Shown here: in pieces, positions 884 through 33,522 of the stretch
Layout of the letters: every line of letters starts with the position of its first letter
Numbering within the stretch: the first letter of the stretch is position 1
Assembly: GCA_964371245.1 (NCBI GenBank)
Contig: CAYJKP010000001.1
Coordinates: 123,042 to 187,041 of the forward strand
Length of the DNA stretch: 64,000 bases
From: an uncultured Gammaproteobacteria bacterium
GTDB lineage: Bacteria > Patescibacteriota > Patescibacteriia > JAHIZJ01
Direction of reading: 5' to 3'
The notes under the pieces: model-generated
The model's database searches: none
The model's input: only the letters and a program-made list of their open reading frames with translations
Told to the model about the DNA's origin: nothing
Program-made: the position numbers and the translations under genes

Positions 884-2701
884 ATGGAGCTAGCCGGCAC
901 ATCACCACAGTCCAAGACAGACGGCGCAGACAATCTCGCCGACCAGATCCTTGACGCACTCCAAAGTCAATCGCCAAAGCATGCGCTGACGCTGCTCTTC
1001 CAGCTCCAGGCGAAAGAACAAACGACGGCGCTGCCAGCCGATCTCCAGATACAGAAACAGCGCTTGCAAATCATTGCCATCCCGTTGCTCTCGGCCAACG
1101 AACTGGTTTCGATTTTTCAAAAAAATCTCCGTCCGGTGCTTGAATTCAACGTCGGCGATCGTTTGAAACGCCGCTTTGTGTCGTTACCGTTACGCGACCA
1201 GGACGAGCTGAAACAGAATATTCAGTCAGCCCTTGAATTAAACACACTCCCGTTTGTATCGGGCGTTGCATCTTCGCCGGCTGCCTGGATCGAACAATAC
1301 AACCTGCGACACGGCCAATACTCCGATTTTCTGAAAAATAACGTGGCCTATATTTCCCTGACGAAAGAAGAGCAGCTAAAGGTTGAGCGTCTCATGCGGT
1401 TGTACCAGCAGATTTCCGCGCTCTCCACGTCGCCGGCCGGGATAGAGGACGAGATGCTGGTGAAAGACGAGCAGGGGAAATTTCAGGTATTACGCGAAGG
1501 GCGCTTCATTGAACTGAACGCCGAGCCGGTTGAAACCCCACCGATACCAAGTTCGAACGTCCAACCAGTGCCGTCGAAACCAGCCATTTCATCGTCGCCA
1601 GTTGTGACGGTCCCGATTGCGCCGACGCTGCCACCACGACCGCCGGTCTTGCCCAGAACAGATCCGCAGAAGCCAACAACGCCGCCGATCACGCCGGTTC
1701 CACGGCCGATTATGCCGCAACCTCGCCCCAGCCCCGCGAGCCAAAACCCAACCGCTGATTTCTATTTTCACCGCGAAGACGAGGAAGAGGTAAACCGCTT
1801 CCGTACGCGGCTAGCTGATGCCACCACCCCATCTGGCGCAAATATCGAACAAATCGCCGATCGGTTGATCCGGGACTTCCGCTTAACCTTTGCTAATGAC
1901 GCGTTACGCTCGCGCTTTGTCAGCATAATCGTTTCCCGTTTGAAAGACGTGCGTGATTTGATTGAAACAAAGAGTATGCTCATGCGGCCGATCGAGGTCG
2001 GCGGTATCGGTCTGCCGGAAACACTCGTGATGCAGATACTCTCTCAGGTTGAGGAGGAAATACTCACCTTGCATAGCCGACCAGCCGAACCGATAAGCCA
2101 GGAAAAACCGCCCGAGCCGCTTCCCGTCAAACCGCGCGAGGAGCCAATTGCGCCGCCGGCTATTCAAACGCCGCCACCAGCCGCGCCAACAGTACCAGTG
2201 CGGCCACCGGTTCCGCCAAGATTGGATATACCGAAGCCAATGGCGGCAGTTCGGCCTACGCCAATTCCGCCGCGCCAAACGCTTACGAGCCAGCCAGCAA
2301 ACTCGGGTACGACCATCGTAAAGCGGCCTGTTGAGACAACGCGACCGGTTATGTCAGACATAAAACCGCCGGCCAAGACCGTCGGACCAGTTGAAGAAAT
2401 TTTTCGTCTGACCCCCGATGATTACCGCCGTCTCGGGAAGACGCTAGCCGAAGCAAACGATAAAATCGCTGAAAAACTCGATCTTTTGGAAGAGGATTCA
2501 TATCTCAAGCGGGCCGAGGGCGTAAAAGCTTGGAAGAAGAACGCCGTTCACCGACTCTATCTTGAAATCGGCCGGGAAAGCATGGAGCGGAATATGGCCA
2601 TATCGGACGTTATTCGTCAGCGTCAGGAAGCCAACCGTCCAACCGTAACCGAGGAGGAATTTCACGCCATCGCTGATTTAAATAAGCGGATAAGTTTCTA
2701 G
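884..2701 (+). CDS. hypothetical proline-rich protein
   Basis: Long ORF with strong coding asymmetry; only short, likely spurious antisense ORFs overlap it. Two long P/T/V-rich low-complexity tracts; no recognizable catalytic motif. Confidence 0.5.
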   Translation: MELAGTSPQSKTDGADNLADQILDALQSQSPKHALTLLFQLQAKEQTTALPADLQIQKQRLQIIAIPLLSANELVSIFQKNLRPVLEFNVGDRLKRRFVSLPLRDQDELKQNIQSALELNTLPFVSGVASSPAAWIEQYNLRHGQYSDFLKNNVAYISLTKEEQLKVERLMRLYQQISALSTSPAGIEDEMLVKDEQGKFQVLREGRFIELNAEPVETPPIPSSNVQPVPSKPAISSSPVVTVPIAPTLPPRPPVLPRTDPQKPTTPPITPVPRPIMPQPRPSPASQNPTADFYFHREDEEEVNRFRTRLADATTPSGANIEQIADRLIRDFRLTFANDALRSRFVSIIVSRLKDVRDLIETKSMLMRPIEVGGIGLPETLVMQILSQVEEEILTLHSRPAEPISQEKPPEPLPVKPREEPIAPPAIQTPPPAAPTVPVRPPVPPRLDIPKPMAAVRPTPIPPRQTLTSQPANSGTTIVKRPVETTRPVMSDIKPPAKTVGPVEEIFRLTPDDYRRLGKTLAEANDKIAEKLDLLEEDSYLKRAEGVKAWKKNAVHRLYLEIGRESMERNMAISDVIRQRQEANRPTVTEEEFHAIADLNKRISF

Positions 2702-2707: not shown

Positions 2708-3163
2708 ATGCCACTTCAATTCACCGTGCCACAATTTATCGATGTTGAAGACAAGATCTTTGGTCCGATCTCGGTCCGTCAATTCGTTATTATCCTAATC
2801 GGGATCGGTGTGGTCGTGATGCTGTATTTCGTGTTAACATTTACATTGTTTATCTTTGCCGCTCCGATCGCCTGCGGCGTGATCGCCATCTTTGCCTTTT
2901 TTAAGATAAATGGCCAGCATTTTCACCTTTTTCTCCTCAACGTTGCGACCACCTTCCGTCGTCCGCGCATCAAGCTTTGGCACAAACATTTAGCCGATGA
3001 CGAGATTCAAGAGGAAAAAGCGAAAGAAAAGGTCGGTTCCGAAGGCGGCGGACCGCCGAAGATTACACCGACAAAAAGTCGTCTTCGCGAACTTTCCTTG
3101 ATCGTCGACACGGGCGGAGCCTATGGCGAGGAATCCTGGCAGGTGACGCGCGATACCCGATAG
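2708..3163 (+). CDS. PrgI/VirB3-like small T4SS membrane protein
   Basis: N-terminal motif (IDVEDKIFGPISVRQFVIILIG) followed by two TM helices is typical of Gram-positive PrgI-family (VirB3-like) proteins. It sits immediately upstream of VirB4. Confidence 0.55.
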   Translation: MPLQFTVPQFIDVEDKIFGPISVRQFVIILIGIGVVVMLYFVLTFTLFIFAAPIACGVIAIFAFFKINGQHFHLFLLNVATTFRRPRIKLWHKHLADDEIQEEKAKEKVGSEGGGPPKITPTKSRLRELSLIVDTGGAYGEESWQVTRDTR

Positions 3164-3176: not shown

Positions 3177-3860
3177 ATGCCTACCCCACAGAACAAACAG
3201 CGTAAAAACACCCCTTCGACTCAGCGGTTCGTACCGATCGCTGAAATTAAAGACGACGCCGTGATCTTAAAAGACGGGACAATTCGAGGCGTCATCCTGG
3301 TTTCATCGATCAATTTTGCTCTGAAGTCGGAAGACGAACAAAACGCCATCATCCAGGCCTATACCCAATTTCTCAACTCATTTGAATTTCCGGTGCAGGT
3401 GGTGATTCAATCGCGGAAACTTGATATTGATGAATATCTCCAGCGGCTCGAGAAGGTCGAAAAGGAGCAGATGAACGAATTATTAAAAATGCAGACTCGC
3501 GAATACCGCCAGTTTGTAAATGAATTGATTGAATTGGCCGATATCATGAGCAAGCGTTTCTATGTCATTGTTCCGTATGCGCCGGTGACGAAAAAATCTT
3601 CAAAAAAGTTTTTTGACCGGGTTCAAGAATTATTTGCGCCCAGCCGGATTATTCAATTGAAAAAAAGCCAATTTGAAAAATACCATACCGAACTGGCCAA
3701 GCGGGTTGATTTCTTGATCAGCGGCTTGAACGCCATGGGCTTGAAGGCCGTTGGTCTCGACACGCAGAGCCTGATTGAACTGTATTACAATACGTATAAT
3801 CCAGAAACCTACGACCATCAAGAATTGGTCCAGGTTGATCGTATTCAAGTGGAGCGTTAA
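3177..3860 (+). CDS. VirB4 N-terminal domain-like protein; appears to be the detached N-terminal domain of the downstream VirB4 ATPase
   Basis: Motif 'FVPIAEIKDDAVILKDGTIRGVILVSSINFALKSEDEQNAIIQAYTQFLNSF...VQVVIQSRKLDIDEYL' resembles the N-terminal region of Gram-positive VirB4/TcpF/TraE-type ATPases. Stop TAA at 3858-3860, then one nt, then ATG of the next ORF, with GGAG 7 nt upstream. Confidence 0.5.
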   Translation: MPTPQNKQRKNTPSTQRFVPIAEIKDDAVILKDGTIRGVILVSSINFALKSEDEQNAIIQAYTQFLNSFEFPVQVVIQSRKLDIDEYLQRLEKVEKEQMNELLKMQTREYRQFVNELIELADIMSKRFYVIVPYAPVTKKSSKKFFDRVQELFAPSRIIQLKKSQFEKYHTELAKRVDFLISGLNAMGLKAVGLDTQSLIELYYNTYNPETYDHQELVQVDRIQVER

Positions 3861-3861: not shown

Positions 3862-5787
3862 ATGGCAAACCTCGATCTCTCGAAAAAACAAGCCGTCGTA
3901 CCAGAGGCAACCCAGGCCAAGGTCATTTTAACGCCGCAACAAAAACGCGAGGCGGAGGCGTTAGCCATGGAGCGTGAGAAACGCGCGATCGAAGTAGAGC
4001 GGATCTACCGCGAAGGCGTGGTGACCATCCGAGATCTGATTGCTCCATCATCTTTCCGGGTGATGCCGTCGTACGTCGAGTTGGGCAGCAAATTTGTCCG
4101 GACGCTGTTTGTGGTGACCTACCCGCGCTACCTCACGGTCGGCTGGTTCGCGCCGATTGTCAATCTTAATTTCACGCTCGATATTGCGATGTATTTCTAT
4201 CCGATCAGCTCCGATATCATCCTGAAGCAATTACGGAACAAAGTCGGCGCGCTCGAAGCGCAAATTATGGCCGACGCCGAAAAGGGAGCGGCGCGCGATC
4301 CGATGCGGGAGACCGCCCTGCGCGACATTGAAAAATTGCGCGATGATCTGACGCAAGGGACAGAGAAGTTCTTTCAATTTTCCCTCTACATGACGCTGTA
4401 TGCGGATTCACTCAAGGAATTAAATGAATTGACGGATCGAGTCGAAGGCATGCTCGGTTCGCGCCTCGTCTATTCGAAGCGGGTGTTTTACCAGGCGGAA
4501 CAGGGCTATAATTCCACCCTGCCCATGGCGATCGATGAGATCAATGTGACCTTTAACATGAACACCTCGCCGGCCGCCTCGTCCTTCCCGTTTATTTCGT
4601 CCGAGCTGACGAGCGACAACGGAATTCTCTACGGCATCAACCGCCACAATAACAGCTTGATCTTATTTGACCGCTTCAGTCTTCAGAACGCCAATTCGTG
4701 CGTTTTTGCGACCTCAGGCGCTGGCAAAAGTTACGCGGTCAAGCTCGAAGTGCTCCGCAGCCTGATGCTTGGAACGGACGTTATCATTATTGACCCAGAA
4801 AAGGAATATAAGTATCTCTGCGACGCCGTCGGCGGAGCCTACGTCAACATCTATCTCAACTCGGACTCAAAGATAAATCCGTTTGATTTACCGAGACCGG
4901 TCGGGGAAGCCGATCGACCGGCCGATATCATCCGTTCGGCCGTGATCACCTTAAAAGGGCTGCTTCGCTTGATGCTCGGCGAATTTACGCACGAGGAAGA
5001 TTCGCTCGTCGACCGGGCACTGATCGAAACCTACGCCAAGAAAGACATCACAGCCGATTCCGACCTAACGAAAATCGAGGCGCCGCTTATGTCCGATTTC
5101 GAAGAGGTGCTCGGTGGCATGGAGGGCGGTGACGGGTTGGTCAAGCGGCTGAAGAAATTCACCGAGGGAACGTTTGCCGGCTTGTTCAACAGCCCGACGA
5201 ACATCGACGTGAAAAACCAGCTAGTTGTGTTCAGCGTGCGGGACCTTGAGGATGAGCTGCGTCCGATCGCCATTTACACCATCGTCAATTATATCTGGAA
5301 CGTTGTCCGGTCGGAAATGAAGAAACGGATTATGGTCATCGATGAGGCGTGGTGGCTAATGCAGAACGAAGATTCAGCCAAATTCATCTACGCACTGGTC
5401 AAGCGCTGCCGCAAATATTATCTCGGGGTGACGACGATCACGCAGGATGTCAACGACTTCTTGCGATCACCGTATGGCCAGGCCATTGTCACGAACTCGT
5501 CATTGCAGCTTTTACTCAAACAGTCGCCGGCTGGTGTCGATATTTTGGCGAAAACATTCTTGCTGACGGAAGGCGAAAAATATTTGCTGCTGGAAAGTGG
5601 GGTTGGCGAGGGGATATTCTTTGCCGGTTCCCGCCATGCCGCCATAAAAGTTGTTGCCTCGTACACGGAAGATCAAATCATTACCTCGGATCCAAAGCAG
5701 CTGCTCGAGATAGAAGCCGCGAAGAAGGAGTTTGCCGAATCGATGGCCCAAGAGGAAGACGTAAAGTCAGCCGCACCAAAACCATAA
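3862..5787 (+). CDS. virB4: VirB4/TraE-family T4SS ATPase (AAA-like, DUF87-type), C-terminal two-thirds
   Basis: 'RDLIAPSSFRVMPSYVELGSKFVRTLFVVTYPRYLTVGWFAPIVNL' is the conserved Gram-positive VirB4 segment. Walker A FATSGAGKSYAV, Walker B VIDEAWWLM, and 'TQDVNDF' are present. The ORF-track start at 3775 is an upstream extension; ATG 3862 with an RBS is preferred. Confidence 0.8.
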   Translation: MANLDLSKKQAVVPEATQAKVILTPQQKREAEALAMEREKRAIEVERIYREGVVTIRDLIAPSSFRVMPSYVELGSKFVRTLFVVTYPRYLTVGWFAPIVNLNFTLDIAMYFYPISSDIILKQLRNKVGALEAQIMADAEKGAARDPMRETALRDIEKLRDDLTQGTEKFFQFSLYMTLYADSLKELNELTDRVEGMLGSRLVYSKRVFYQAEQGYNSTLPMAIDEINVTFNMNTSPAASSFPFISSELTSDNGILYGINRHNNSLILFDRFSLQNANSCVFATSGAGKSYAVKLEVLRSLMLGTDVIIIDPEKEYKYLCDAVGGAYVNIYLNSDSKINPFDLPRPVGEADRPADIIRSAVITLKGLLRLMLGEFTHEEDSLVDRALIETYAKKDITADSDLTKIEAPLMSDFEEVLGGMEGGDGLVKRLKKFTEGTFAGLFNSPTNIDVKNQLVVFSVRDLEDELRPIAIYTIVNYIWNVVRSEMKKRIMVIDEAWWLMQNEDSAKFIYALVKRCRKYYLGVTTITQDVNDFLRSPYGQAIVTNSSLQLLLKQSPAGVDILAKTFLLTEGEKYLLLESGVGEGIFFAGSRHAAIKVVASYTEDQIITSDPKQLLEIEAAKKEFAESMAQEEDVKSAAPKP

Positions 5788-5816: not shown

Positions 5817-6455
5817 ATGAAAGGGTTCCGTATTCTCATCATCGTGCTTGGAGGGCTGGCCGTTCTCGCCGCCGCGGCGTTGGTGATTTTGCGATTGACG
5901 CAAAAACCGACCAATTCTAATACCAATACGAATACGCCGGTAAATAATGCAGTGGTGAATACGACGAACGAAAATACCAACACGTCGAATACAAATACAA
6001 ATACGAATACGGCGAACACCAACGCAAATACAAATACGGTTCCGAGTAATACGAATACAAACACCGGGAGTACACCCGAAGCGAATCTCAAAGGGGTCGC
6101 GCGAAGTTTTGCCGAGCGCTTCGGCACCTATTCAAACCATTCGGACTTTGAAAACATCGAGCACTTGATACCGTATATGAGCGAACGGATGAAAAAATGG
6201 GCGCAAAAGTATCTCGATGAGCAACGGGAAAAAACCGTCGATCAAAGCGTCTATTATGGCATGATTACTCGGACCATGTCGGTCAAGCAGACCAGCTACG
6301 ATTCTGACAATGGCACGGCTGAATTTCTGGTCACGGCGCAACGAAACGAATCGACCGGTACAAGCTCAAACTCAAGGATATTTTACCAAGACCTCCAGAT
6401 AAAATTTATTAAAGAGCAGTCGGTTTGGAAAGTAAACGAAGCCTGGTGGCAGTAA
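5817..6455 (+). CDS. membrane-anchored protein with Asn-Thr tandem-repeat linker and ~130-aa C-terminal domain (speculatively VirB8/NTF2-like)
   Basis: N-terminal TM (ILIIVLGGLAVLAAAALVIL), (NT)n repeats encoded by aatacgaatac-type DNA repeats, then a globular domain. Located inside the T4SS-like module. Confidence 0.5.
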   Translation: MKGFRILIIVLGGLAVLAAAALVILRLTQKPTNSNTNTNTPVNNAVVNTTNENTNTSNTNTNTNTANTNANTNTVPSNTNTNTGSTPEANLKGVARSFAERFGTYSNHSDFENIEHLIPYMSERMKKWAQKYLDEQREKTVDQSVYYGMITRTMSVKQTSYDSDNGTAEFLVTAQRNESTGTSSNSRIFYQDLQIKFIKEQSVWKVNEAWWQ

Positions 6456-6464: not shown

Positions 6465-7181
6465 ATGGCTACGAATGGTAACAATTTTGATAACGCGCTA
6501 GGGAAATCAAAGGAGAAACAACGCGAATTGGACGATCGAACCGGTCGTTCAAAATCGAGTCAAGAAGCGCTCGATCGTCAGCTGGGACAAGATCCGAAAT
6601 CTTGGCACGATCAGCAAATTCGGCAGGGTAAAGACACGCACACAAAAGACCGATTAGCCGGTTCGATGGGCAGTTCAATCGGCGACGTCAATCAGCCGCG
6701 CGGCATTCGCGGACGGGTGACTGACAAGATGGATCGATCGATACAGGATTTTGACGCTCGTCAGGGTGTTGCTGGCGCAGCCGGAGAACGGTCGGCCGCG
6801 AAACAGCTTGGCGGTGCAAAAGCCGCTGCCATGAAAAAAGCAGCCGAAGGAGGAAGTGCTGAAGAAGTCGGCGAAGCGGCCGGCGCCGCCGCCCTGCAAG
6901 CGAAAAAAATACAGCAATTCCGGATACTCCTGATGGTTTTAAAAGGAGTCAAAATCGGCGCCGCAGCAACGGTGGTGGGGATAATCATCACGATCCTTAT
7001 CTGGGTGGCTCAGGTAATCCTCTCAAAGGTCTTTGGCAAAAAAGAGTTTGAACTCGATTTGTGGGAAAAAATAATTGCCTATCCAATTTGTTTTATTATT
7101 TTGGTCTTCGTGGTAACGCAAATTGCGGTTCTTGTCCAAGCCCTTGGCTTAGTAAGCAGTGTCGTTGATTGGATCTTCTAA
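6465..7181 (+). CDS. hypothetical membrane protein (Gly/Ala/Lys-rich N-terminal region, two C-terminal TM helices)
   Basis: ORF with two hydrophobic C-terminal helices (IGAAATVVGIIITILIWVAQVIL; IIAYPICFIILVFVVTQIAVLV). Confidence 0.45.
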   Translation: MATNGNNFDNALGKSKEKQRELDDRTGRSKSSQEALDRQLGQDPKSWHDQQIRQGKDTHTKDRLAGSMGSSIGDVNQPRGIRGRVTDKMDRSIQDFDARQGVAGAAGERSAAKQLGGAKAAAMKKAAEGGSAEEVGEAAGAAALQAKKIQQFRILLMVLKGVKIGAAATVVGIIITILIWVAQVILSKVFGKKEFELDLWEKIIAYPICFIILVFVVTQIAVLVQALGLVSSVVDWIF

Positions 7182-7208: not shown

Positions 7209-8342
7209 GTGTCAGCGAAAAAGATGTGGTATAATATAGCTATGAATAACACGGCAATAAAAAGACATAATCAGGTTCAACGGTGGTTTGGCATCCTGAT
7301 GTTGATATCGTTATTGACCGTCGCGGTGGCTATGTTTATGGCGCCGCGAGTAGCATATGGTCTAGTTCCAGATGCGGACGCTTGTGGCAAGGGCAAGGTA
7401 AAACTGAATGTTAAGCTCGGCACGACTGAGTGTATTTCTGACATTACCCAGTATACGAAGATTTTTTACAATCTCTTTATCGGGGTCATCGGCATCTTCG
7501 CTGCGGTTATGATTATGTATGCCGGTTTTCAATGGATTTCCGCCTCCGGGAATTCCCAAAAAATTGAACGGGCCAAAGACAGTTTTACGTCGGCCATTAT
7601 TGGTGTTGTGATTGCGCTCATTTCGTACGTTTTGTTGAATTTGATCAATCCTATGATCGTCAACCTGCAGCCAATCGCCCTGGAGACGATTACCGGGCAG
7701 GCGACCGTCGCGAACATGGAGCTCTGTAAAAACATGCTCGGCGATAATTGGTCGCAGCAGGTGATCAGCCCAAACGCCAGTTGCGGCGAGCCGAACAATT
7801 TAAAGGACGCGCAGGGTAAGCCGACGGGCGGTATATGTTATGGCCACGAATGCGGATCTGGCACCCAGTGCTTCAATAAAGCTGGCGTCTGGAAGTGCGA
7901 CTCACCGTATAAAAAATGTACAGATGCAAAAAAGGACCAATGCGCGGCGGTTGACACGATGCTTGAGGATCGAACGTATGGCTGTATCCAAAACACCACT
8001 GGCACGGGTGATGAAGATAAGTGTATCTATGGTCCGATCATCCCCTTAATCATCGGGCAGGGGACTGTCGGTGTCGCGCCAAACATTTATGAGCGAATTC
8101 GCTGCGAAGATTCACCTGAGAGGGACTGCTGGAAAGTAAGTGGTTCGGGAGCGACGCCAACGAAATGCGTTGATGCTGGTTTATATGGAGATTATTTTTG
8201 CACGAACTCTGAGCGGGCGGTTCAATGGGGGCAATCAGTCTGTGTTCATAAGGTTGGCAGCGACCCGCCGGAATATTACCTTTGGACTGGCGCCGCGCAA
8301 GGGGACGATATCGCCCCGGGTTTGTGTTCATCCACCCAATGA
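7209..8342 (+). CDS. VirB2/TrbC-like T4SS pilin-like protein fused to a ~230-aa cysteine-rich C-terminal domain
   Basis: Signal/TM segment, then two hydrophobic helices separated by a short polar loop (IFYNLFIGVIGIFAAVMIMYAGFQWISASGNSQKIERAKDSFTSAIIGVVIALISYVLLNLINP), typical of VirB2/TrbC pilins. Then ~26 Cys in the C-terminal extension. Confidence 0.5.
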   Translation: MSAKKMWYNIAMNNTAIKRHNQVQRWFGILMLISLLTVAVAMFMAPRVAYGLVPDADACGKGKVKLNVKLGTTECISDITQYTKIFYNLFIGVIGIFAAVMIMYAGFQWISASGNSQKIERAKDSFTSAIIGVVIALISYVLLNLINPMIVNLQPIALETITGQATVANMELCKNMLGDNWSQQVISPNASCGEPNNLKDAQGKPTGGICYGHECGSGTQCFNKAGVWKCDSPYKKCTDAKKDQCAAVDTMLEDRTYGCIQNTTGTGDEDKCIYGPIIPLIIGQGTVGVAPNIYERIRCEDSPERDCWKVSGSGATPTKCVDAGLYGDYFCTNSERAVQWGQSVCVHKVGSDPPEYYLWTGAAQGDDIAPGLCSSTQ

Positions 8343-9589
8343 TACACTCACCACAAACAAAAAAAATCCTGATTATCGCCGGCCTGGCGGTCGTTGTATT
8401 GGTCGTCGGCTTCGCCATCTATTTTTTCTTTTTCCGATCAATTTTTGAACCGACGGGCAATGGAAACACAAATGGCAATACCAACAACACCAACGACCTT
8501 AATCGTTTACCCAACATTAACGGTAATCGGAACGTAAACGTCAACACGAACGGAAACACGAACAGCGTGTCGACCCTGCCGGACATCTCTGATGTGGCGG
8601 ACGGTGGTCCGACGAAGGTTACCCCGATCATCAACAGCCGAACAAAAGACGGCGCGCCGACAAGCGATGGAACTGGCTATGTGTACTATGATCCGGCCAC
8701 GTACAAGTTTTACAAAGTACTGGCAAACGGCGAACGCGTCGAAATATCCTCAAAAGAGTTCTATGACGTTCAGAGCATTGCTTGGTCGCCTGATCGGCAG
8801 CGGGCCATCCTCAAGTATCCAGACGGCAGTAATTTGTATTACAACTTCAGCGACGGCCTCTCCGTGACGCTGCCAAAAGAAATACAGGAGCCGGAGTTTA
8901 CGGCAACTGGCAATAAAATCGCCTATAAATTTATTGGCGAACAAGAAGGACAACAATGGCTGGCAGTCTCAAACCCAGACGGCAGCGAACAGCAATTGCT
9001 TCAAGCGCTTGGCGACCGCGCCTCCCGCGTCGACGTCAACTGGTCGCCCGACGGCCAGGTGGCGGGTATTTATCGGGAGGGTACCGGCCTTGATGAAGAG
9101 GAAATATACTTTATCGGCCAGCATGGGGAAAATTTCAAATCCTTCACGGCCAAAGGCTCTGGGTTTACCAGCGCCTGGTCACCGCAAGGCGATAAACTCC
9201 TTTATAGCGTCTATAGCGCCGAGACTGATTATAAACCGACGTTAAGCATTGTTGACGCGCGCGGTGACGCGGTAGGGCTCAATAATACCGCTTTAGATCT
9301 AAACACCTGGCCGGATAAATGCACCTTCGGCGGTACCGCCCTGTATTGTGCCGTTCCGACCGATCTGGCGACCGGCGCCGGCTTATCGCGAGATAGCGCC
9401 GTCATGGCCAACGACAATTTCTACAGCATTGACCTTGCGACCGGACAGAAAACACTCCTCGCGATTCCGTACAACGGACCCGATGATATCGGGTATAGCG
9501 CAGATGGGTTGTATTTGTCGCCCGGCGAAGACGCCTTATATTTTCATAATGCGAAAAACGACAAGCTTGAAAAAATAACGCTCAAATAA
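8339..9589 (+). CDS. membrane-anchored TolB-like (PD40/WD40-like) beta-propeller repeat protein with Asn-Gly/Asn-Thr repeat linker
   Basis: Start overlaps the previous stop (ATGA). TM helix (ILIIAGLAVVVLVVGFAIYFFFF), N-rich repeats, and repeated 'WSPDGQ/WSPDRQ/WSPQGD' motifs. Confidence 0.6.
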   Translation: MIHSPQTKKILIIAGLAVVVLVVGFAIYFFFFRSIFEPTGNGNTNGNTNNTNDLNRLPNINGNRNVNVNTNGNTNSVSTLPDISDVADGGPTKVTPIINSRTKDGAPTSDGTGYVYYDPATYKFYKVLANGERVEISSKEFYDVQSIAWSPDRQRAILKYPDGSNLYYNFSDGLSVTLPKEIQEPEFTATGNKIAYKFIGEQEGQQWLAVSNPDGSEQQLLQALGDRASRVDVNWSPDGQVAGIYREGTGLDEEEIYFIGQHGENFKSFTAKGSGFTSAWSPQGDKLLYSVYSAETDYKPTLSIVDARGDAVGLNNTALDLNTWPDKCTFGGTALYCAVPTDLATGAGLSRDSAVMANDNFYSIDLATGQKTLLAIPYNGPDDIGYSADGLYLSPGEDALYFHNAKNDKLEKITLK

Positions 9590-9590: not shown

Positions 9591-10334
9591 ATGGCTGAGA
9601 AAAAGGTAACGACCGCCCCAAAAACGAAAACCATCGTTATTGTTGTTATTGGACTGCTGGCTTTTCTCGGTTTTCTTTTTGCCTTGATCATGACCCGGTC
9701 AACAATGAACTCAATCTCGCGGCGACTGAACACGAAGGTGGTCTACGAAGGCGTCTCAGATCCGGTTGACCAGTCACAAGATGTTTTGGTAACCGCCGCG
9801 AATAAAGAAGTGAGCGGGACGCCGGAAATCCGTGACACCGATCCGGTCTTAGGAACCGCGGCTCCAAAAATCACCATCATCGAATTTGCCAGTTTCGGAT
9901 CCGGCTATTCAGCAGCGGCTCAGCCAATCGTTCAACAAATCATGGACAATTATGGCAGCGAGGTGAAGCTTGTTTTCAAGGATTATTTTAGCCAGTCTGA
10001 TGCAATGGCGAGCTTGGGAGCGAAGGCGGCTCGCTGCGCTCAAGCCCAAAACAAGTTCTGGGAGATGGAGAAACAGATTTTTCAGACCACGGATGGATTT
10101 GGGAAGTCAGACCTCGTTGATATCGCAAAAAAAATCGGGTTAACCGAAGACGCCTTCACCGCTTGCCTCGACAAAACAGAAACCGATTCCGCCGTCAGCC
10201 AGAATATCAGCGATGGCATTGAGCTTCACCTGTCCGCCGTTCCGACGTTTTTTGTCGACGACAAGGTGCTAACCGGCATCGTGACGTATGACGAATTTGA
10301 GGCACTGGTCATACAAGAACTCGAAGGAAAATAA
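9591..10334 (+). CDS. DsbA-like thioredoxin-fold protein with degenerate active site (CxxC replaced by SFGSGYS)
   Basis: N-terminal TM, then DsbA-like layout (…ITIIEFASFGSGYSAAAQP…KFWEMEKQIF…VPTFFVDDKVL). No Cys at the position where the paralog at 14987-15730 has CPAC. Confidence 0.55.
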   Translation: MAEKKVTTAPKTKTIVIVVIGLLAFLGFLFALIMTRSTMNSISRRLNTKVVYEGVSDPVDQSQDVLVTAANKEVSGTPEIRDTDPVLGTAAPKITIIEFASFGSGYSAAAQPIVQQIMDNYGSEVKLVFKDYFSQSDAMASLGAKAARCAQAQNKFWEMEKQIFQTTDGFGKSDLVDIAKKIGLTEDAFTACLDKTETDSAVSQNISDGIELHLSAVPTFFVDDKVLTGIVTYDEFEALVIQELEGK

Positions 10335-14986: not shown

Positions 14987-15730
14987 TTAGGTCGGATTTT
15001 TATCGACCGCTTGCTGCAGTGCTTGTTTCAGCTGTCCATAGGTCGAAAATGGTTCCAGAAACTTCCCGTTGAGATAATAGGTGGGCGTGCCATTAATTGG
15101 GATGCGCTCGCCGGCCAGGACGGCGTCAGAAATGATTTTCTTAATGGCGTCAGACGCATAATCGCTCAGGAATTGTGTTTTATCGAGATTGAGCGACTCG
15201 GTGTACTGGGCAAACGTATTTGCCGGATCATCAAGCTCTGACCACTCGGCTTGTTTTTCAAACAAGACATCGTGCATCTCCCAAAACTTCCCCTGTTTGC
15301 CGGCGGCTTCGGCTGCCCAGGCGGCCGGCTTCGCGTTTGGGTGCATGGTCAGGGGGAAGTGACGAAAGACGAAAGCGACACGATCACCAAACTCAGTTTC
15401 GGCCTGTTTCACGAACAGGTACCGGGCGGAGCACGCCGGACATTGAAAATCGCTGTATTCGATTAAGACAACTTTTGAATCGTTTTTACCTCTGACCCAG
15501 TCGCCGCCGGCAACGGCGTCAAGCGGTAATTTTGGCATTTTGGCCGCGCTTTTGCTGCCCAGCCAGAAGATGCCGAATATGACAAGCGCTCCAGCGACGC
15601 CGATAACACTCCAAAGCAATATTTTATTACGGCGCTGTTTGCCGACTTGTTGTTCGCTGCGTTCGGCTTTTTCCTGCCGGCGCAATTCGCGCCGTTCCCT
15701 TTTGGTCAGGTTTTTGTTTAGTTCATCCAT
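14987..15730 (-). CDS. dsbA: DsbA-family thiol:disulfide oxidoreductase (intact CPAC active site), membrane-anchored
   Basis: N-terminal TM, then 'LIEYSDFQCPACSARY', 'GKFWEMHD', 'INGTPTYYLNGKF' (cis-Pro loop region). Confidence 0.75.
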   Translation of the reverse strand: MDELNKNLTKRERRELRRQEKAERSEQQVGKQRRNKILLWSVIGVAGALVIFGIFWLGSKSAAKMPKLPLDAVAGGDWVRGKNDSKVVLIEYSDFQCPACSARYLFVKQAETEFGDRVAFVFRHFPLTMHPNAKPAAWAAEAAGKQGKFWEMHDVLFEKQAEWSELDDPANTFAQYTESLNLDKTQFLSDYASDAIKKIISDAVLAGERIPINGTPTYYLNGKFLEPFSTYGQLKQALQQAVDKNPT

Positions 15731-21228: not shown

Positions 21229-24200
21229 ATGAAAATGGTAGGGAAACTCATAAGGAATCTTTTGCGAAAAAAGATTTTTTATTTTGGCATTGTGGCAATA
21301 ATTCTCGGACTATCATTTTGCCATTACGCATTTATCCGCTCCGCCCAGGCCGCGCCACAGTGCACATCATCGTCAATGCCAGGTGATCCGTGGGGCGGCG
21401 ATGGCGTCCATTTTTTCTATAGCGCTACGCCAACCAGTCTGATTGTCGGCCGGCCAGACGCAGTAATCGAAATCGACAGTTGCAACATGCACGAGCCAGA
21501 CAGTCCGCCAAATCGAGGTTGGAACCGATACCTACTCAGAAGGGTCGGGACGACTGGGCCGGATCTCGAAGCTCAGTACGGGTATGGTGGTGGACAGAAC
21601 TTGACCATTAGTTTTGATCTTTCGAGCGTGGCGCCTGGGTATTACAATCTCATCCACTACTATTCGAATAAAACAAGTTATATTCCCGAGGTGTGGAATC
21701 CAGGAAGCGACGGTCAGGAGCTGCCTGATTATCCAGCTGGCCCCAATGAATACTATGACGCCCCACACGTTCCAGTGGGTGATTACCATCCAAAAGTTGT
21801 TTACAATCGACAAATCTTGGTTTATTCGCCGGCAATAGTCGGCTGGGGCTGGTTTGGCGCGGCCACGCCGGGTGATACCAGTTGTCGTGATTCGCGCGGC
21901 CAGCCGTATCCCTGCGGTTCGCCTGCCTGGATGAGCTTGAATTGTTTGAGCGACACCATCGGCGGGACCAGCCGCAACCGATGCTATGACGCAGTCGACA
22001 ACCCAACTGGGGTTGATTATGGTTTGAGTTTGTTTTATGACATGGATCATTTCAGTATCCGCGGCCAAGCCTGGCTCGGCATCCATAGCGATAATGATTC
22101 AAATCCAGCAAATAATACCGGAATTGGCTGGGCAAGTTTTGATCCGACCATTGATCAAGGTAATGCCTATTATGCGGTTCCGACGCTCGCTGGCACGACC
22201 GCGACACAAGCCAGTTACAATGAAGACACGGGCGCGGTCTATGGCTGGGCTCGGATACGAACGCTCCAAGAAGAGGGGGTGAATACCCGCTGTTCAACGA
22301 CCACGCGTGATTGGAGCGACGTACCGATTAGTTTGTTGGGCAGTCTCAATGGTCTCTCTAGCCACCTCGTTGAAGCATCAGACCGCACAGTCCATGCGAC
22401 CTGGGTCGGGCCAGGTCCGGATCAGTCCATCTATTATGATTATCTGACCGGCGGTTCATGGCTGGCAAACCCGATCAATCTATCGAATATTGTGGGTGGA
22501 GAAACGGGTAACTCAGCTCCTGATATCGCAGTCGAGTCTGACGGAACAGTCTACGTATCATATATACACCAAGGGACCGATATACGCGTGTTTTCGTGCA
22601 GTTCGAGTTGCGACGATACAGCGAATTGGTCCTATACCAATGCGGTTACGGGCGTGGTTGGTTTAACAGACCAGTCGCTTGCCACGACAAAGGATTTTAG
22701 CCGCACAATCTATGTCTATTACCAATTAAACAATGAAGTATACATTGTTACCAGCCAAGACGGTAGCGCCTGGACCGGTCCGGAAAACATATCAAATTCT
22801 GGGACAGCTTCCTGGCCTCGTCTGGCCGTTGATTTTCAGGATAATGTCCACGTCGTCTGGCAAGCCGGATCAAATATCTACTATCGGAAATACACAAACG
22901 GCTCTGGCTGGTCGCCGGATTTATCCTCACCAGGCACACAAGTAAACGTACTTGGCGCCAGCGCTCATCCAGCCATCGCGGTTGATCCTGAAGCCAATCC
23001 TCACATCGTGTATGAAACTGCCGCGAATATTGTGTATCGGAAACACACCCCAATCGGCGGATGGTATTCGGAAATACAAGTGAGCAGTGGCACGAGCGAT
23101 ACCAATCCGATCATCGCCTATGGAAATGATTACCGGGTGCATATTCTGTATCTCGACAACGACCACGCTCCCAACAAGAAAATCCTATACACCGAATCAA
23201 CCAACGGCAAAGACTGGTCTGTGCCAAATCCAGTCTATGATGAAAACACAGTCGATCAATTGTCCCCCGATGCAATCGTGACAAAGGATAATTATGTTCA
23301 GGCGCTTTTTAGCCGGCCGGGCGATGTGATCCATCAAACCGTGTCCACCGGCAGCTTTGGCGACTCCTGCACAGCGCCAAGTCCAACTGACGTGTCCGGA
23401 ACGGACTGGGGCTGGGTAAGCCTCCGTGGCGGACTGGGCATGTGTGGTGCCGCGCAATGCGCCACTCCCCAAGATTATGCCGACGTTCTCGAAACAATCG
23501 GTCCAGGTTTCCGGAGTTGTTTTGCCTGTGATGAAACGGCCAAGTCCTGCAAAATCTGCGAAGTCCTCGATAAGGATTATGGCGCTCCCAGCGCGACGAA
23601 CCCGCCGCGCTATGCCTGTAATGTCTGTACGGCTTGCGGAAAATGCGAAAATCAGCCGGCCATATCTTGCTATGATGATACGCCGTGTAATGGCGGGAGC
23701 TGCGTGATTAATAATAAATGCTCACGCACGGGGGTGGCGTGTGATCAAGAGAACCCGTGTGAGTGGACTGAAGGCGAAAAGAACGAATGTGTCCCGGCCT
23801 GTGCGTCTTGCGATTCTTGTAATATCTGGGGCGTATCGATCGATGGTGATCTTGCGACGGGCGCAAATTTTCACGGCTATGGCTGGTCAGCCGGCGGGAC
23901 AGTAGATATCACTGGTCAGCCCGGTTCGTATAATTCTGGAGACGTCGATTCAGCCTATAATTTAACATTGGCCGGAGCATGTACCAGCTCAAATGATTGC
24001 GTTGCTGGCGGCTGGGCGATAAATAATCCAGCTAATCCGAACTTTAATACAGCCGGGCAGTTGTGCGGTAAGGATGCAGACTTTGGTCTGGCGGGTGGAA
24101 CACTCGACGGTTGGGGTGCTTGTCAGGTTCGCGGGCCAGGGGCGTTGACCAAGTATTTCACCAAAGACATCCCGATCACCCAGGCTGGCAACTATTTCAT

Positions 24201-25476
24201 ATCACTTAACGCGATCTTCGATGCCTCGGTGAACGAAAATGTGGTTATCGAAATACTTGATAACGCGACTGATGGAAATATTATCAAAACCTTAACTTCG
24301 GCCGATCTGAATAACGTCGGAAAGGTCCGTAAAACGTGCACCTTCCCGAACGAGGTCTATCTCGAACCAGGCAATTTATTGCGCCTTAAGTCGTCAAATG
24401 ACGTTGATACCGAAATCGATTCTTTTCAGCTTACCAGCCTGCCGGTCAGCGACTTGAACTGCGAGCTGAACAATGAGTTGACCGAGGTATATGTCGATGA
24501 GGTCGGATTCGGCTTCATGGATTATAGCAACGTGTCTACACTCGACCCGTGGGTACAGACGCAATATGGCAATATTTATTCAGGCGGGGCAGTTGGTCCG
24601 GGCGGCGGAGCGCCAGCCGGAGCCATGAACTCGACCTATATCATTGGCACGGCCGCAGGTGCAGGAATTGATAGCAGCTGGATTGCTCCAATCATCCGGG
24701 AAGGCACGGAAACGACATTCGGGCTACCATCGGCCGAGCATAATTATCGAAACCCGCTCGGAAAAATACCGTATGCAGAGCTAAGCAAACCAGCCGGTAG
24801 TAATCCCTACAGCGACCGCGTGATCGAGTATAATAGTGAGACGGCACCGGCCTGCGACCCAGTCACTCATAATATCTCCTGGGGCCAGGTAAAGGACAAC
24901 ATCATACCGCCCAACGGAAAGGGTCCGTTACGAAAAGGGGTCTATCATTTTGGACGCATTGATGATCCCTGCAATCTCGTTATTAATCAAGAAATGGAAC
25001 TTGAAAACGGCAATAATGAGAATGGCGCAGGAACCTTCTTAATTGAGGGTGACCTGATTGTTGACGCCAACATCTCGGTTAAAGAAACCGGTAATCAGAT
25101 AGATGTCATTAGCGAACTCGCCTCAGCTGGGTTCATTGTAAAGGGGAATGTTAAAATAAAAGGTACGGTCACCGAGATGGTCGGCGCCTATGCCGTAATC
25201 GGCTGTGATAATGTCGGCGGAAACTGCCAGGGCGATCCGTCAAGCCATGTTGGTTTGTTTGATACGGCATATGACTCCGATGCGTCAACCGATCAATTCA
25301 AGCTGTATGGCGTGGTTATTGCATATCGCTATGATTTTGGACGGAAGTATTCTGGTCTGGAAGGCGCCGAGGTCTTCACGAATAACGGCGTTCTCCAAGC
25401 CAATCCTCCGCCGGGATTTGTGGATATTTCAACTGCCACGAAGATTTCGGCCGAAAGACCGTTTACCACCCCCTAA
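21229..25476 (+). CDS. very large secreted/surface protein with Asp-box (BNR-like) beta-propeller repeats and a Cys-rich central region
   Basis: Signal/TM at the N-terminus. Repeated 'hVxW...IYYRKxTxxxGWS' units with Asp-box-like motifs (SQDGSAWT, STNGKDWS). A ~300-aa stretch contains >35 Cys. 1415 aa. Confidence 0.7.
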   Translation: MKMVGKLIRNLLRKKIFYFGIVAIILGLSFCHYAFIRSAQAAPQCTSSSMPGDPWGGDGVHFFYSATPTSLIVGRPDAVIEIDSCNMHEPDSPPNRGWNRYLLRRVGTTGPDLEAQYGYGGGQNLTISFDLSSVAPGYYNLIHYYSNKTSYIPEVWNPGSDGQELPDYPAGPNEYYDAPHVPVGDYHPKVVYNRQILVYSPAIVGWGWFGAATPGDTSCRDSRGQPYPCGSPAWMSLNCLSDTIGGTSRNRCYDAVDNPTGVDYGLSLFYDMDHFSIRGQAWLGIHSDNDSNPANNTGIGWASFDPTIDQGNAYYAVPTLAGTTATQASYNEDTGAVYGWARIRTLQEEGVNTRCSTTTRDWSDVPISLLGSLNGLSSHLVEASDRTVHATWVGPGPDQSIYYDYLTGGSWLANPINLSNIVGGETGNSAPDIAVESDGTVYVSYIHQGTDIRVFSCSSSCDDTANWSYTNAVTGVVGLTDQSLATTKDFSRTIYVYYQLNNEVYIVTSQDGSAWTGPENISNSGTASWPRLAVDFQDNVHVVWQAGSNIYYRKYTNGSGWSPDLSSPGTQVNVLGASAHPAIAVDPEANPHIVYETAANIVYRKHTPIGGWYSEIQVSSGTSDTNPIIAYGNDYRVHILYLDNDHAPNKKILYTESTNGKDWSVPNPVYDENTVDQLSPDAIVTKDNYVQALFSRPGDVIHQTVSTGSFGDSCTAPSPTDVSGTDWGWVSLRGGLGMCGAAQCATPQDYADVLETIGPGFRSCFACDETAKSCKICEVLDKDYGAPSATNPPRYACNVCTACGKCENQPAISCYDDTPCNGGSCVINNKCSRTGVACDQENPCEWTEGEKNECVPACASCDSCNIWGVSIDGDLATGANFHGYGWSAGGTVDITGQPGSYNSGDVDSAYNLTLAGACTSSNDCVAGGWAINNPANPNFNTAGQLCGKDADFGLAGGTLDGWGACQVRGPGALTKYFTKDIPITQAGNYFISLNAIFDASVNENVVIEILDNATDGNIIKTLTSADLNNVGKVRKTCTFPNEVYLEPGNLLRLKSSNDVDTEIDSFQLTSLPVSDLNCELNNELTEVYVDEVGFGFMDYSNVSTLDPWVQTQYGNIYSGGAVGPGGGAPAGAMNSTYIIGTAAGAGIDSSWIAPIIREGTETTFGLPSAEHNYRNPLGKIPYAELSKPAGSNPYSDRVIEYNSETAPACDPVTHNISWGQVKDNIIPPNGKGPLRKGVYHFGRIDDPCNLVINQEMELENGNNENGAGTFLIEGDLIVDANISVKETGNQIDVISELASAGFIVKGNVKIKGTVTEMVGAYAVIGCDNVGGNCQGDPSSHVGLFDTAYDSDASTDQFKLYGVVIAYRYDFGRKYSGLEGAEVFTNNGVLQANPPPGFVDISTATKISAERPFTTP

Positions 25477-26720: not shown

Positions 26721-26729
26721 AAAAAACCT

Positions 26730-27905: not shown

Positions 27906-27909
27906 TACC

Positions 27910-28620: not shown

Positions 28621-28638
28621 TTGGAGGAGGTTTAAACT

Positions 28639-28956: not shown

Positions 28957-28970
28957 TACATCGCAAACAC

Positions 28971-30737: not shown

Positions 30738-30749
30738 TCGTTCATCCGT

Positions 30750-31175: not shown

Positions 31176-31180
31176 AAACC

Positions 31181-32257: not shown

Positions 32258-32260
32258 CCT

Positions 32261-33469: not shown

Positions 33470-33493
33470 TATTTGCATTGGCTAAATTTGACA

Positions 33494-33522
33494 TTGTTCT
33501 TTTCCAATAATTGTGCTATAAT
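33494..33522 (+). promoter_or_regulatory. putative promoter of pilin gene 1 (-35 TTGTTC, 17-nt spacer, extended -10 TGcTATAAT)
   Basis: TATAAT at 33517-33522 preceded by TGn; ~115-nt 5' UTR ending in an AAAGGGGG RBS. Confidence 0.45.

What the first reader, a model, noticed from the sequence alone, without database searches (positions are those of the whole stretch)
7209..8342. VirB2/TrbC-like pilin fused to a large cysteine-rich extracellular domain
The first ~150 aa have the VirB2/TrbC pilin layout: a signal/TM segment followed by two hydrophobic helices around a short polar loop. The same polypeptide then carries a ~230-aa C-terminal region with about 26 cysteines (CGKGK, CYGHECGSGTQC, CDSPYKKCTD, and others). 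T4SS pilins are normally ~70-120 aa with no extra domain. A conjugative-type pilin with a disulfide-rich tip or adhesin domain would be unusual.
Basis: partly seen in the sequence, partly recalled or inferred. Interest (0 to 1): 0.65.

Follow-up and report, generated by a model that had tools for sequence, protein, structure and literature searches.

The report
T4SS pilin with hypervariable cysteine-rich head
An uncultured ultra-small (Patescibacteria) bacterium encodes, inside its type IV secretion operon, a conjugative-type pilin with a fast-evolving, disulfide-rich domain of unrecognised fold fused to its outward-facing end; this is most likely a built-in device for contacting other cells, and no such fusion turned up in the T4SS papers read here.

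Summary
The ORF is real (7209/7242..8342, 377/366 aa). It has 18 cysteines, not about 26; 16 lie in the C-terminal ~215 aa.

Residues 84-146 match Pfam T4SS_pilin (PF18895) at 40.6 bits, above the 26.6-bit cutoff. The layout is signal peptide, two helices and a short basic loop.

The fusion is not an artefact. A profile of the C-domain finds only 37 cluster representatives among 1.84 billion proteins. Apart from three short, probably truncated entries, each carries the pilin module in front. Seventeen cysteines are invariant among the eight closest sequences.

Seven other loci repeat the gene order as far as each contig reaches: PrgI/VirB3, TrsD, VirB4, two membrane proteins, this pilin, a propeller protein, a DsbA-like protein. 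It is the only pilin-like ORF in all eight.

AlphaFold gives a confident C-domain model (pLDDT 87.6) with no Foldseek match in PDB or BFVD.

Against the closest genome, the operon is 88-98% identical in DNA. The distal C-domain (nt ~7830-8340) drops to 48-74%, with saturated synonymous sites, while the pilin core has no amino-acid change.

Best reading: a genuine VirB2-like pilin displaying a swappable, disulfide-stabilised recognition domain. Polymerisation is not shown.

Verdict: new variant of a known kind; interest 0.58.

The parts
7242..8342 (+). Pilin-fusion gene, 366 aa from ATG 7242. The longest ORF starts at GTG 7209 and gives 377 aa. Residue numbers in this list use the 377-aa numbering.
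   Evidence: ORF listed. P0001 is 100% identical and starts at M12. The stop codon TGA is at 8340-8342.
7242..7361 (+). Predicted long signal peptide: a basic n-region, the hydrophobic stretch WFGILMLISLLTVAVAMFMA, and a predicted cleavage site A-Y-G|L after residue 51.
   Evidence: Hydropathy profile. Short homologs carry AxA-type sites at the same position. This is a prediction by rule; no signal-peptide predictor was available.
7383..7433 (+). Extracytoplasmic N-terminal beta-hairpin bracketed by C59 and C75, a probable disulfide.
   Evidence: Both cysteines are invariant in the 8 sequences of A1. The AlphaFold model has strands at 64-70 and 73-76 (low confidence).
7458..7658 (+). VirB2-like pilin core: TM helix 1 (residues ~84-108), a basic loop with the SGN/AKD motifs (109-125), and TM helix 2 ending in the NP motif (126-150).
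   Evidence: PF18895 at 40.6 bits for residues 84-146, and 45.2 bits when the domain is scanned alone. There is no amino-acid change against L003, at dS about 0.3-0.9. The motifs G, AK and G are shared with short pilins.
7659..7718 (+). Flexible linker between TM2 and the globular domain.
   Evidence: pLDDT is below 50 for residues 146-169 of the full-length model.
7719..8339 (+). Cysteine-rich C-terminal domain with 16 cysteines. It is mainly beta structure with three short helices, and its fold is not recognised.
   Evidence: The AlphaFold model has pLDDT 87.6 and pTM 0.77. There is no Foldseek hit with E<0.6 in PDB or BFVD. No Pfam or PDB sequence hit was found. The profile finds only 37 cluster representatives in 1.84e9 proteins.
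7830..8340 (+). Divergence island covering the distal C-domain. DNA identity to the closest genome (L003) is 48-74% here, against 88-98% in the flanks.
   Evidence: Sliding DNA identity. In sliding codon windows dN is 0.23-0.45 and pS is 0.66-0.94, against operon-gene values of dN 0.002-0.059 and pS 0.25-0.45.
884..2701 (+). Conserved 605-aa proline-rich protein at the head of the operon. It has no TM segment and no family match.
   Evidence: No Pfam or NCBIfam hit. It sits at the same position in L001-L005 at 42-89% identity.
2708..3163 (+). PrgI family protein (VirB3-like).
   Evidence: PF12666 at 39.7 bits.
3177..3860 (+). TrsD/TraC-like protein, corresponding to the N-terminal domain of VirB4 encoded as a separate gene.
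   Evidence: NCBIfam matches to the VirB4 N-region and to TrsD. The L001/L002 orthologs carry PF26593 TraC-like.
3862..5787 (+). VirB4-type ATPase.
   Evidence: NCBIfam conju_CD1110 at 358 bits, above its 325-bit cutoff. PF19044 P-loop_TraG.
5817..6455 (+). 212-aa protein with an N-terminal TM anchor and an Asn/Thr-rich linker. Function unknown.
   Evidence: Syntenic in L001-L005 and L007.
6465..7181 (+). 238-aa protein with a hydrophobic C-terminal segment. Function unknown.
   Evidence: Syntenic in L001-L005.
8339..9589 (+). TM-anchored TolB/PD40-like beta-propeller protein. Its ATG overlaps the pilin stop codon (ATGA), which suggests translational coupling.
   Evidence: Sequence at the junction. 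Weak TolB and PD40 hits. It directly follows the pilin in all 7 other loci.
9591..10334 (+). DsbA-like thioredoxin-fold protein that closes the operon. Its CxxC motif is replaced by SGYS.
   Evidence: PF13462 at 78 bits. The motif is seen in alignment A6 and in the motif scan.
14987..15730 (-). Second DsbA-like protein with an intact CPAC active site. It is the likely oxidase for the exported cysteines.
   Evidence: PF13462 at 81.5 bits. The motif FQCPAC is seen.

Best explanation
The gene encodes a genuine VirB2-like pilin of the Patescibacteria type IV secretion system. A roughly 24-kDa globular domain, probably held by eight disulfides, is permanently fused to the pilin's C-terminus.

Proposed mechanism:
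1. The protein is inserted through Sec and its long signal peptide is removed.
2. The two pilin helices then sit in the membrane, with the basic loop in the cytoplasm.
3. Both the N-terminal hairpin and the C-terminal domain face outward. There the catalytic DsbA (14987-15730) oxidises them.
4. The pilin core is handled like other VirB2 proteins: it is recruited through PrgI/VirB3 and extracted by VirB4.
5. The cysteine-rich domain therefore ends up on the outside of whatever the T4SS builds, either a short stub or a filament, or at least at the cell surface next to the machine.
6. There it serves as a variable recognition or adhesion module for the partner (host) cell.

Shown: the domain architecture, its conservation, the operon context, and the divergence island. 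Inferred: topology, disulfide formation, polymerisation and adhesion.
For: Pilin identity:
- PF18895 scores above its cutoff. All 22 of 22 family pilin domains match it, and 10 of 22 also hit TrbC/VirB2 weakly.
- The core shares motifs with short pilins of 84-149 aa, which score up to 107 bits.

Functional constraint on the core:
- There are no amino-acid changes over about 140 codons against L003, despite dS of about 0.3-0.9.
- Mean family identity is 47% for the core and 17-24% for the C-domain. This is tighter than a plain membrane anchor would need.

Context:
- The gene lies in a tightly packed operon with PrgI, TrsD and VirB4. Its stop codon overlaps the next gene's start.
- Gene order is identical in L001-L005, and the pilin-propeller(-DsbA) part recurs in L006 and L007.
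- It is the only pilin-like ORF in all eight loci.

Fusion is real:
- 37 representatives were found, and 34 of 39 aligned sequences reach PF18895.

Extracytoplasmic, disulfide-bonded domain:
- Cysteine counts are almost always even.
- The loop is basic, which fits the positive-inside rule.
- Two DsbA-like genes lie nearby.

Exposed recognition role:
- The distal C-domain is the fastest-evolving stretch of the whole operon and shows saturated synonymous divergence.

Background from papers:
- VirB2-like pilins are known in Patescibacteria T4SS loci (PMC12102498).
- The Southlakia epibionticum T4SS gene cluster and its pilin array are each reported as essential during co-culture with the host (PMC12857230).
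- In solved conjugative pili the inter-helix loop faces the lumen (PMC12037004). By geometric inference the opposite, C-terminal end would then lie at the outer surface.
Against: - No experiment or structure shows that PF18895 pilins polymerise.
- A 24-kDa domain on every subunit would be crowded. Using the H-pilus lattice (5 subunits per 12.14 Å, ~90 Å diameter; PMC12037004), my estimate is that the domains would fill a shell about 40-45 Å thick. That is feasible but dense, and I know of no precedent.
- No VirB6-like or VirB8-like protein was recognised in the operon.
- The DsbA-like gene inside the operon has lost its CxxC motif in this clade, so it cannot itself be the oxidase.
- No VKOR or DsbB was found in the 64-kb window.
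- The rest of the genome could not be scanned for further, short pilins.
- No binding function can be read from the fold, because nothing similar was found.
Confidence: 0.6

Rival explanations
1. Non-polymerising surface receptor. The pilin hairpin serves only as a membrane anchor and as a docking element for the T4SS inner-membrane complex. The cysteine-rich domain works as a cell-surface adhesin or sensor beside the channel, and no pilus is made.
For: The large C-domain would crowd a VirB2-type lattice (my estimate from the geometry in PMC12037004). T4SSs of monoderms generally lack pili (PMC12857230, PMC12102498). No VirB5, VirB6 or VirB8 was recognised in the operon. The next gene is another membrane-anchored surface protein, translationally coupled to the pilin.
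Against: The pilin core is far more conserved than an anchor requires: no amino-acid change over about 140 codons against L003, and 47% mean identity across the family. It also keeps the loop and helix-end motifs of the short pilins.
Confidence: 0.25
2. Minor or tip pilin. Short major pilins encoded elsewhere in the genome build the filament. This fusion protein is incorporated rarely or at the tip, and so replaces the missing VirB5 adhesin.
For: In about 40% of Patescibacteria assemblies that have both VirB4 and pilins, the pilin genes are not near virB4 (1135 of 1948 are near; PMC12102498). A tip position would remove the crowding problem. Only 64 kb of a roughly 1.18-Mb contig was available.
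Against: It is the only pilin-like ORF within 64 kb here and within the up to ±10 kb held around the gene in seven other loci. None of the 120 listed short pilins comes from a contig of 1,175,835 bp; this is weak evidence, because that list is limited by word-sharing and by length.
Confidence: 0.12
3. Artefact. A frameshift or assembly error fused a pilin gene to a separate cysteine-rich gene, or the pilin resemblance is a chance match of hydrophobic helices.
For: Short hydrophobic Pfam models can give spurious hits. The same region also gives weak hits to unrelated membrane families.
Against: The same architecture is found in independent assemblies from NCBI, JGI, ENA and Logan. Apart from three short entries of 195-291 aa that look truncated, the C-domain is never found on its own. 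PF18895 scores above its curated cutoff. The gene sits in the same place in the VirB3/VirB4 operon wherever the contig reaches that far: L001-L005 in full, and the VirB4 end in L007.
Confidence: 0.02

Closest known systems
VirB2-like pilins of Patescibacteria T4SS (Pfam PF18895 T4SS_pilin), for example the essential six-gene pilin array of Southlakia epibionticum ML1
   Same: The pilin-core family and motifs are the same. The genomic setting is also the same: next to PrgI/VirB3, TrsD and VirB4 in a chromosomal T4SS related to those of monoderms (PMC12102498, PMC12857230).
   Different: The related pilins retrieved here are 84-149 aa and end just after TM2 (the hit list appears capped in length). 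Published arrays hold 2-11 pilin genes (PMC12102498). Here there is a single gene per locus, and it carries an extra ~215-aa domain with 16 cysteines.
Canonical conjugative pilins: VirB2, TrbC, TraA, TrhA
   Same: They share a long signal peptide, two hydrophobic helices joined by a short basic loop, and a gene placed with virB3/virB4. There are weak PF04956 hits (window protein E=0.021; best in the family 9.7e-5).
   Different: The window protein does not reach the PF04956 cutoff (15.5 vs 27.9 bits). No match was found to any solved pilin by sequence. Mature canonical pilins are about 70 residues, and some have their C-terminus trimmed or cyclised (PMC12037004). This protein instead has its C-terminus extended by a folded domain.
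F-plasmid TraN (a 22-cysteine protein of the F T4SS; from my own knowledge, the outer-membrane adhesin that stabilises mating pairs) together with the thioredoxin-fold proteins TraF and TrbB
   Same: A T4SS locus that combines a cysteine-rich surface protein with thioredoxin-fold proteins. One of those proteins, TraF, lacks CXXC yet acts in pilus extension (PMC11315126). Here the operon's DsbA-like protein has SGYS in place of CxxC, and a second copy keeps CPAC.
   Different: No sequence similarity to TraN, TraU or TraH was detected. Here the cysteine-rich module is fused to the pilin itself rather than being an outer-membrane protein. The organism is a monoderm.
VirB5-type tip adhesins of Gram-negative T4SS
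   Same: The proposed role is the same: a host- or recipient-recognition element presented at the distal end of the T4SS (PMC12624023).
   Different: VirB5 is a separate helical protein. No VirB5 homolog is present in the operon, and the C-domain model is mainly beta structure and disulfide-rich.
Mbov_0395 / MMCAP2_0565 pilin-like protein of Mycoplasma ICEs (NCBIfam NF045849)
   Same: It matches residues 77-148 at E=1.7e-8, which shows a VirB2-like protein in a wall-less monoderm conjugation system.
   Different: The score of 34 bits is below the 40-bit cutoff. That family model is only 80 residues long and has no C-terminal domain.

Membership tests
T4SS_pilin (Pfam PF18895) | A match to the family HMM at or above the curated gathering score. 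| tested here: met
   40.6 bits against a cutoff of 26.6, for residues 84-146 and profile positions 10-71 of 71. The isolated domain scores 45.2 bits. 34 of 39 sequences carrying the C-domain match at E<=0.001.
T4SS_pilin (Pfam PF18895) | Small size: a signal peptide plus a two-helix hairpin and little else. | tested here: not met
   The protein is 366-377 aa. Related pilins retrieved with the core profile are 84-149 aa and stop 5-25 residues after TM2. That hit list appears to be capped in length by the tool.
VirB2/TrbC conjugative pilins (Pfam PF04956) | A match to the TrbC/VirB2 HMM above its cutoff. | tested here: not met
   15.5 bits and E=0.021 against a cutoff of 27.9. Ten of 22 family cores hit at E<=1, the best at 9.7e-5. 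Many short homologs carry both PF18895 and PF04956. This indicates a distant relationship, not membership.
VirB2/TrbC conjugative pilins | A cleavable signal peptide followed by two TM helices with a short, positively charged cytoplasmic or lumenal loop. | tested here: met
   Hydropathy profile and sequence. The AlphaFold model has helices at 79-111 and 116-151. The A-Y-G|L site obeys the -3/-1 rule. All of this is prediction only.
VirB2/TrbC conjugative pilins | The gene is encoded with virB3 and virB4 in a T4SS locus. | tested here: met
   PrgI, TrsD and VirB4 lie immediately upstream. Synteny holds across L001-L005, and the VirB4 end is also seen upstream in L007.
VirB2/TrbC conjugative pilins | Polymerises with a phospholipid into a helical, hollow filament. 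| not testable with these tools
   This needs filament isolation and cryo-EM, or at least multimer modelling, which was not available.
Exported disulfide-bonded (Dsb substrate) domain | Extracytoplasmic location and paired (even-numbered), conserved cysteines, with an oxidase present. | tested here: met
   The predicted topology puts all 18 cysteines outside. C-domain counts are even in 37 of 39 sequences. 17 cysteines are invariant in A1. A DsbA with an intact CPAC motif lies at 14987-15730. The disulfides themselves were not observed.
F-like TraN/TraU/TraH cysteine-rich T4SS proteins | Sequence or profile similarity to those families. | tested here: not met
   No such Pfam or NCBIfam hit at E<=1. 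No hit to a solved structure.
Type IV (T2SS-like) pilins | An N-terminal prepilin methylation motif (PF07963). | tested here: not met
   The motif is absent from this protein. It is present in two other genes of the window, at 33638-34844.

The most novel reading that the evidence does not exclude
This protein is the sole and therefore major subunit of the T4SS filament in this Patescibacteria clade. If so, every pilin would carry a 24-kDa, eight-disulfide domain of a new fold. The result would be a sheathed pilus about 17-18 nm wide, roughly twice the width of known conjugative pili. Its whole surface would be a recombinationally exchangeable host-recognition coat, combining in one polypeptide the roles of VirB2, VirB5 and a TraN-like adhesin.
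Probability: 0.3. Interest if true: 0.8.

Novelty: new variant of a known kind. Interest (0 to 1): 0.58.

Why it matters
Patescibacteria are thought to depend on contact with host bacteria. In the one species tested, the T4SS and its VirB2-like pilins are essential (PMC12857230). What the machine does, and whether it builds a pilus at all, remains open.

A clade in which the only local pilin carries its own exposed, disulfide-stabilised, rapidly diversifying domain gives a concrete handle on that question. The domain is large enough to be seen by cryo-ET and to raise antibodies against. Its variability predicts that it determines partner specificity.

It also widens the known architecture of T4SS pilins. 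The pilins compared here (PMC12037004, PMC12102498) are minimal two- to three-helix proteins. The finding further adds a confidently modelled domain with no detectable relative among solved or viral structures.

Tried and rejected
- Sequence profiles against the PDB. The pilin core and the C-domain profiles gave no meaningful hit.
- Word-indexed search with the 115-aa pilin fragment. It found nothing.
- Word-indexed search with the core profile. It returned only proteins shorter than 150 aa and not even the parent proteins. It therefore cannot give an unbiased length distribution for the family.
- Supplementary table of PMC12102498. It lists VirB2 hits but no protein lengths.
- Frameshift or artefact fusion. 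Rejected on conservation of the full-length ORF.
- Silent donor cassettes for the variable domain, in the manner of pilS. None was found in the window or in 7 loci.
- VKOR or DsbB partner. None in the window.
- The new CPR Pam pili (bioRxiv 10.64898/2026.03.03.709456). These are Ig-like, donor-strand-exchange pilins and a different system.
- Operon DsbA-like protein as the oxidase. Rejected for this clade, because its CxxC motif is replaced by SGYS.

Full report
**What is there.** An identical database protein (P0001) starts at M12, which is ATG 7242, and is 366 aa long. It is seen on 19 contigs, the longest 1,175,835 bp. The quoted motifs are present. The cysteine count is 18, not about 26. 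C59 and C75 lie before the first pilin helix, and 16 cysteines lie between residues 173 and 373. Cysteine makes up 7.4% of the C-terminal 217 residues, against 0.86% in 49 other ORFs of the window (binomial P about 1e-10).

**The N-terminal module is a T4SS pilin.**
- Residues 84-146 match Pfam PF18895 (T4SS_pilin) at 40.6 bits, against a gathering score of 26.6.
- Scanned alone, the core scores 45.2 bits. It also gives a weak sub-threshold hit to TrbC/VirB2 (PF04956, E=0.021). Ten of 22 family cores hit TrbC at E<=1, the best at 9.7e-5.
- NCBIfam gives a near-threshold hit to the Mycoplasma ICE pilin-like protein family (34 vs 40 bits).
- The layout is basic n-region, a 20-residue hydrophobic stretch, an A-Y-G|L site, a short Cys-bracketed hairpin, TM1, the loop SASGNSQKIERAKDS, then TM2 ending in NP. 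This is the VirB2 layout.
- With the positive-inside rule, this layout places the N-terminal hairpin and everything after TM2 outside the cell.
- A profile of the core retrieves many 84-149-aa PF18895 pilins, scoring up to 107 bits, and many of them also carry PF04956.
- In an alignment those short pilins end 5-25 residues after the NP motif, whereas this protein continues for about 225 residues.
- One caveat applies. That search returned nothing longer than 149 aa, not even the parent proteins, so it is biased by length.

**The fusion is conserved and rare.**
- A whole-protein search found seven homologs of 356-386 aa, at 30-100% identity, all carrying PF18895. Seventeen cysteines are invariant in that alignment of eight sequences.
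- A profile of the C-domain alone was scored against 1.84 billion cluster representatives. It found only 37 proteins at E<=1e-3.
- In all of them except three short, probably truncated entries, the domain occupies the C-terminal part of a 338-483-aa protein.
- 34 of 39 aligned sequences reach PF18895 at E<=0.001, and all 36 with an N-terminal region show the pilin motifs.
- C-domain cysteine counts are 14-24 and almost always even.
- GenBank's pipeline already names several members 'pilin [Patescibacteria group bacterium]'.
- I found no paper describing the extra domain.

**Context.**
- The gene sits in a tightly packed operon:
  - a conserved 605-aa proline-rich protein;
  - PrgI (VirB3-like);
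  - a TrsD/TraC-like protein, which is the VirB4 N-domain encoded as a separate gene;
  - the VirB4 ATPase (CD1110 family, 358 bits);
  - two small membrane proteins;
  - the pilin;
  - a TM-anchored TolB-like propeller;
  - a DsbA-like protein.
- The pilin stop codon overlaps the propeller gene's start codon (ATGA).
- The order is identical in L001-L005, where the pilins are 29-79% identical to this one by BLASTP. The pilin-propeller pair recurs in L006, and the pilin-propeller-DsbA triad in L007, where the pilins are about 26-28% identical.
- This is the monoderm-type T4SS described for Patescibacteria: VirB4, TrsD and PrgI plus VirB2-like pilins, usually without a relaxase (PMC12102498).
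- In Southlakia epibionticum, both the T4SS gene cluster and its pilin array were reported as essential during co-culture with the host (PMC12857230).
- Published pilin arrays hold 2-11 genes. By contrast, the fusion pilin is the only pilin-like ORF in the 64-kb window and in the up to ±10 kb held around the gene at seven other loci.

**The C-terminal domain.**
- With a 26-sequence alignment, AlphaFold gives a confident model: pLDDT 87.6, pTM 0.77, mainly beta structure with three short helices.
- A linker of about 20 residues with low confidence precedes it.
- Foldseek finds nothing significant in the PDB or in BFVD; the best E is about 0.7-1 with TM 0.1-0.2.
- Profile searches of PDB sequences and of Pfam find nothing either.

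**Evolutionary signal (new here).**
- Across the family, the pilin core averages 47% pairwise identity. The C-domain averages 24%, or 17% without the cysteines.
- Against the closest genome (L003), the other eight operon genes are 89-99.6% identical in protein. Their dS is 0.31-0.68 and their dN is 0.002-0.059. The pilin is the most divergent gene at 79%.
- The divergence is localised. Residues 61-200 (366-aa numbering) have dN of 0-0.02. In sliding windows from about residue 200 to 346, dN is 0.23-0.45 and synonymous differences are saturated (pS 0.66-0.94).
- DNA identity falls from 88-98% to 48-74% exactly over nt ~7830-8340. It returns to 96% right after the pilin stop.
- A smaller dip covers the signal peptide and N-loop (nt 7288-7377).
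- Such an island indicates either allele replacement by recombination or long-standing diversifying selection on the distal part of the domain.
- No silent donor copies exist nearby.

**Disulfide machinery.**
- The operon's DsbA-like protein has SGYS (SGYT in L002) where the CxxC motif should be in the window, L001, L002 and L003. L004 likewise shows no CxxC at that position. The distant locus L007 keeps CPAC.
- A second DsbA-like gene, at 14987-15730 on the minus strand, keeps CPAC in the window, L001 and L002, the three genomes in which it was aligned.
- This recalls the F plasmid. There TraF has a thioredoxin fold without CXXC and acts in pilus extension. TrbB is the active isomerase. TraN, TraU and TraH are cysteine-rich, with 22, 11 and 6 cysteines (PMC11315126).
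- No VKOR was found in the window. L001 has one next to its distal DsbA.

**Mechanism.**
- The best-supported reading has three parts:
  - The protein is a real VirB2-like pilin, because its core is under very strong constraint.
  - Its outward-facing C-terminus carries a disulfide-stabilised, variable recognition domain.
  - That domain is presented at the T4SS, where it can contact the partner cell.
- In solved conjugative pili the inter-helix loop faces the lumen. The lattice has five subunits per 12.14 Å and an outer diameter of about 90 Å (PMC12037004).
- By inference the C-terminus would then lie on the outer surface.
- My estimate takes 23.5 kDa as about 28,000 Å3 per subunit, with 0.41 subunits per Å. 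The domains would then fill a shell about 40-45 Å thick.
- A fully decorated filament is therefore possible, but it would be about 17-18 nm wide, and I know of no precedent.
- Whether the protein polymerises, acts only as a membrane-anchored receptor, or is a minor or tip subunit cannot be decided with these data.

**Verdict.** The protein belongs to a known kind, the Patescibacteria VirB2-like T4SS pilins. It represents a conserved architectural variant that I found described in no paper. Its extra domain has an unrecognised fold and shows a clear hypervariability signature.

Noticed in passing
window 9591-10334 (+); L001 12421-13158; L002 12335-13069; L007 4000-4629: The DsbA-like gene that closes the T4SS operon has its CxxC active site replaced by SGYS (SGYT in L002). 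L003 shows the same SGYS, and L004 shows no CxxC at that position. The distant locus L007 keeps CPAC. In this clade the protein is a redox-dead thioredoxin fold, reminiscent of F-plasmid TraF.
   Followed up: partly
window 14987-15730 (-): A second DsbA-like gene has an intact FQCPAC motif, conserved in the window, L001 and L002. L001 also has a VKOR gene next to it, but no VKOR homolog is present anywhere in the 64-kb window.
   Followed up: partly
window 3177-3860 and 3862-5787 (+): VirB4 is encoded as two adjacent genes: a TrsD/TraC-like N-domain and the ATPase. They are separated by one base. This matches what has been reported for Patescibacteria and some Gram-positive plasmids.
   Followed up: partly
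window 8339-8342: The pilin stop codon TGA overlaps the ATG of the downstream TM-anchored beta-propeller gene (ATGA). That gene follows the pilin in every locus examined, so it may be a functional partner.
   Followed up: partly
window 21229-25476 (+): An orphan ORF of 1415 aa with 41 cysteines (2.9%) and no Pfam match. It lies just upstream of a type IV pilus locus and may be another disulfide-rich surface protein.
   Followed up: no
window 25596-34844 (+): A type IV pilus locus with PilM (25596-26720), a PilB-type ATPase (28971-30737) and two prepilin-motif pilins of 181 and 190 aa, each with 8 cysteines (33638-34183 and 34272-34844). The T4P and T4SS loci thus lie within about 20 kb of each other.
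   Followed up: no
window 884-2701 (+): A 605-aa proline-rich protein with no TM segment and no family hit. It is conserved at the head of the T4SS operon in L001-L005 (42-89% identity).
   Followed up: no
window 7288-7377 (+): A second, smaller dip in DNA identity to L003 (68%, against about 90% in the flanks). It covers the signal-peptide core, the cleavage region and the start of the mature N-terminus of the pilin.
   Followed up: no
L005 (CAZQLY010000011.1): This contig carries the same Patescibacteria-type operon, but its record is titled 'uncultured Gammaproteobacteria bacterium'. The MAG is probably mis-binned or mislabelled.
   Followed up: no
P0012, P0014, P0015, P0016 and other distant family members: The more distant members are longer (about 440-480 aa) and have 20-24 cysteines in the C-terminal part. 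These include an extra small Cys-rich tail after the shared domain, such as CEDYKSIETCSDNICDLFDKCEW.
   Followed up: no
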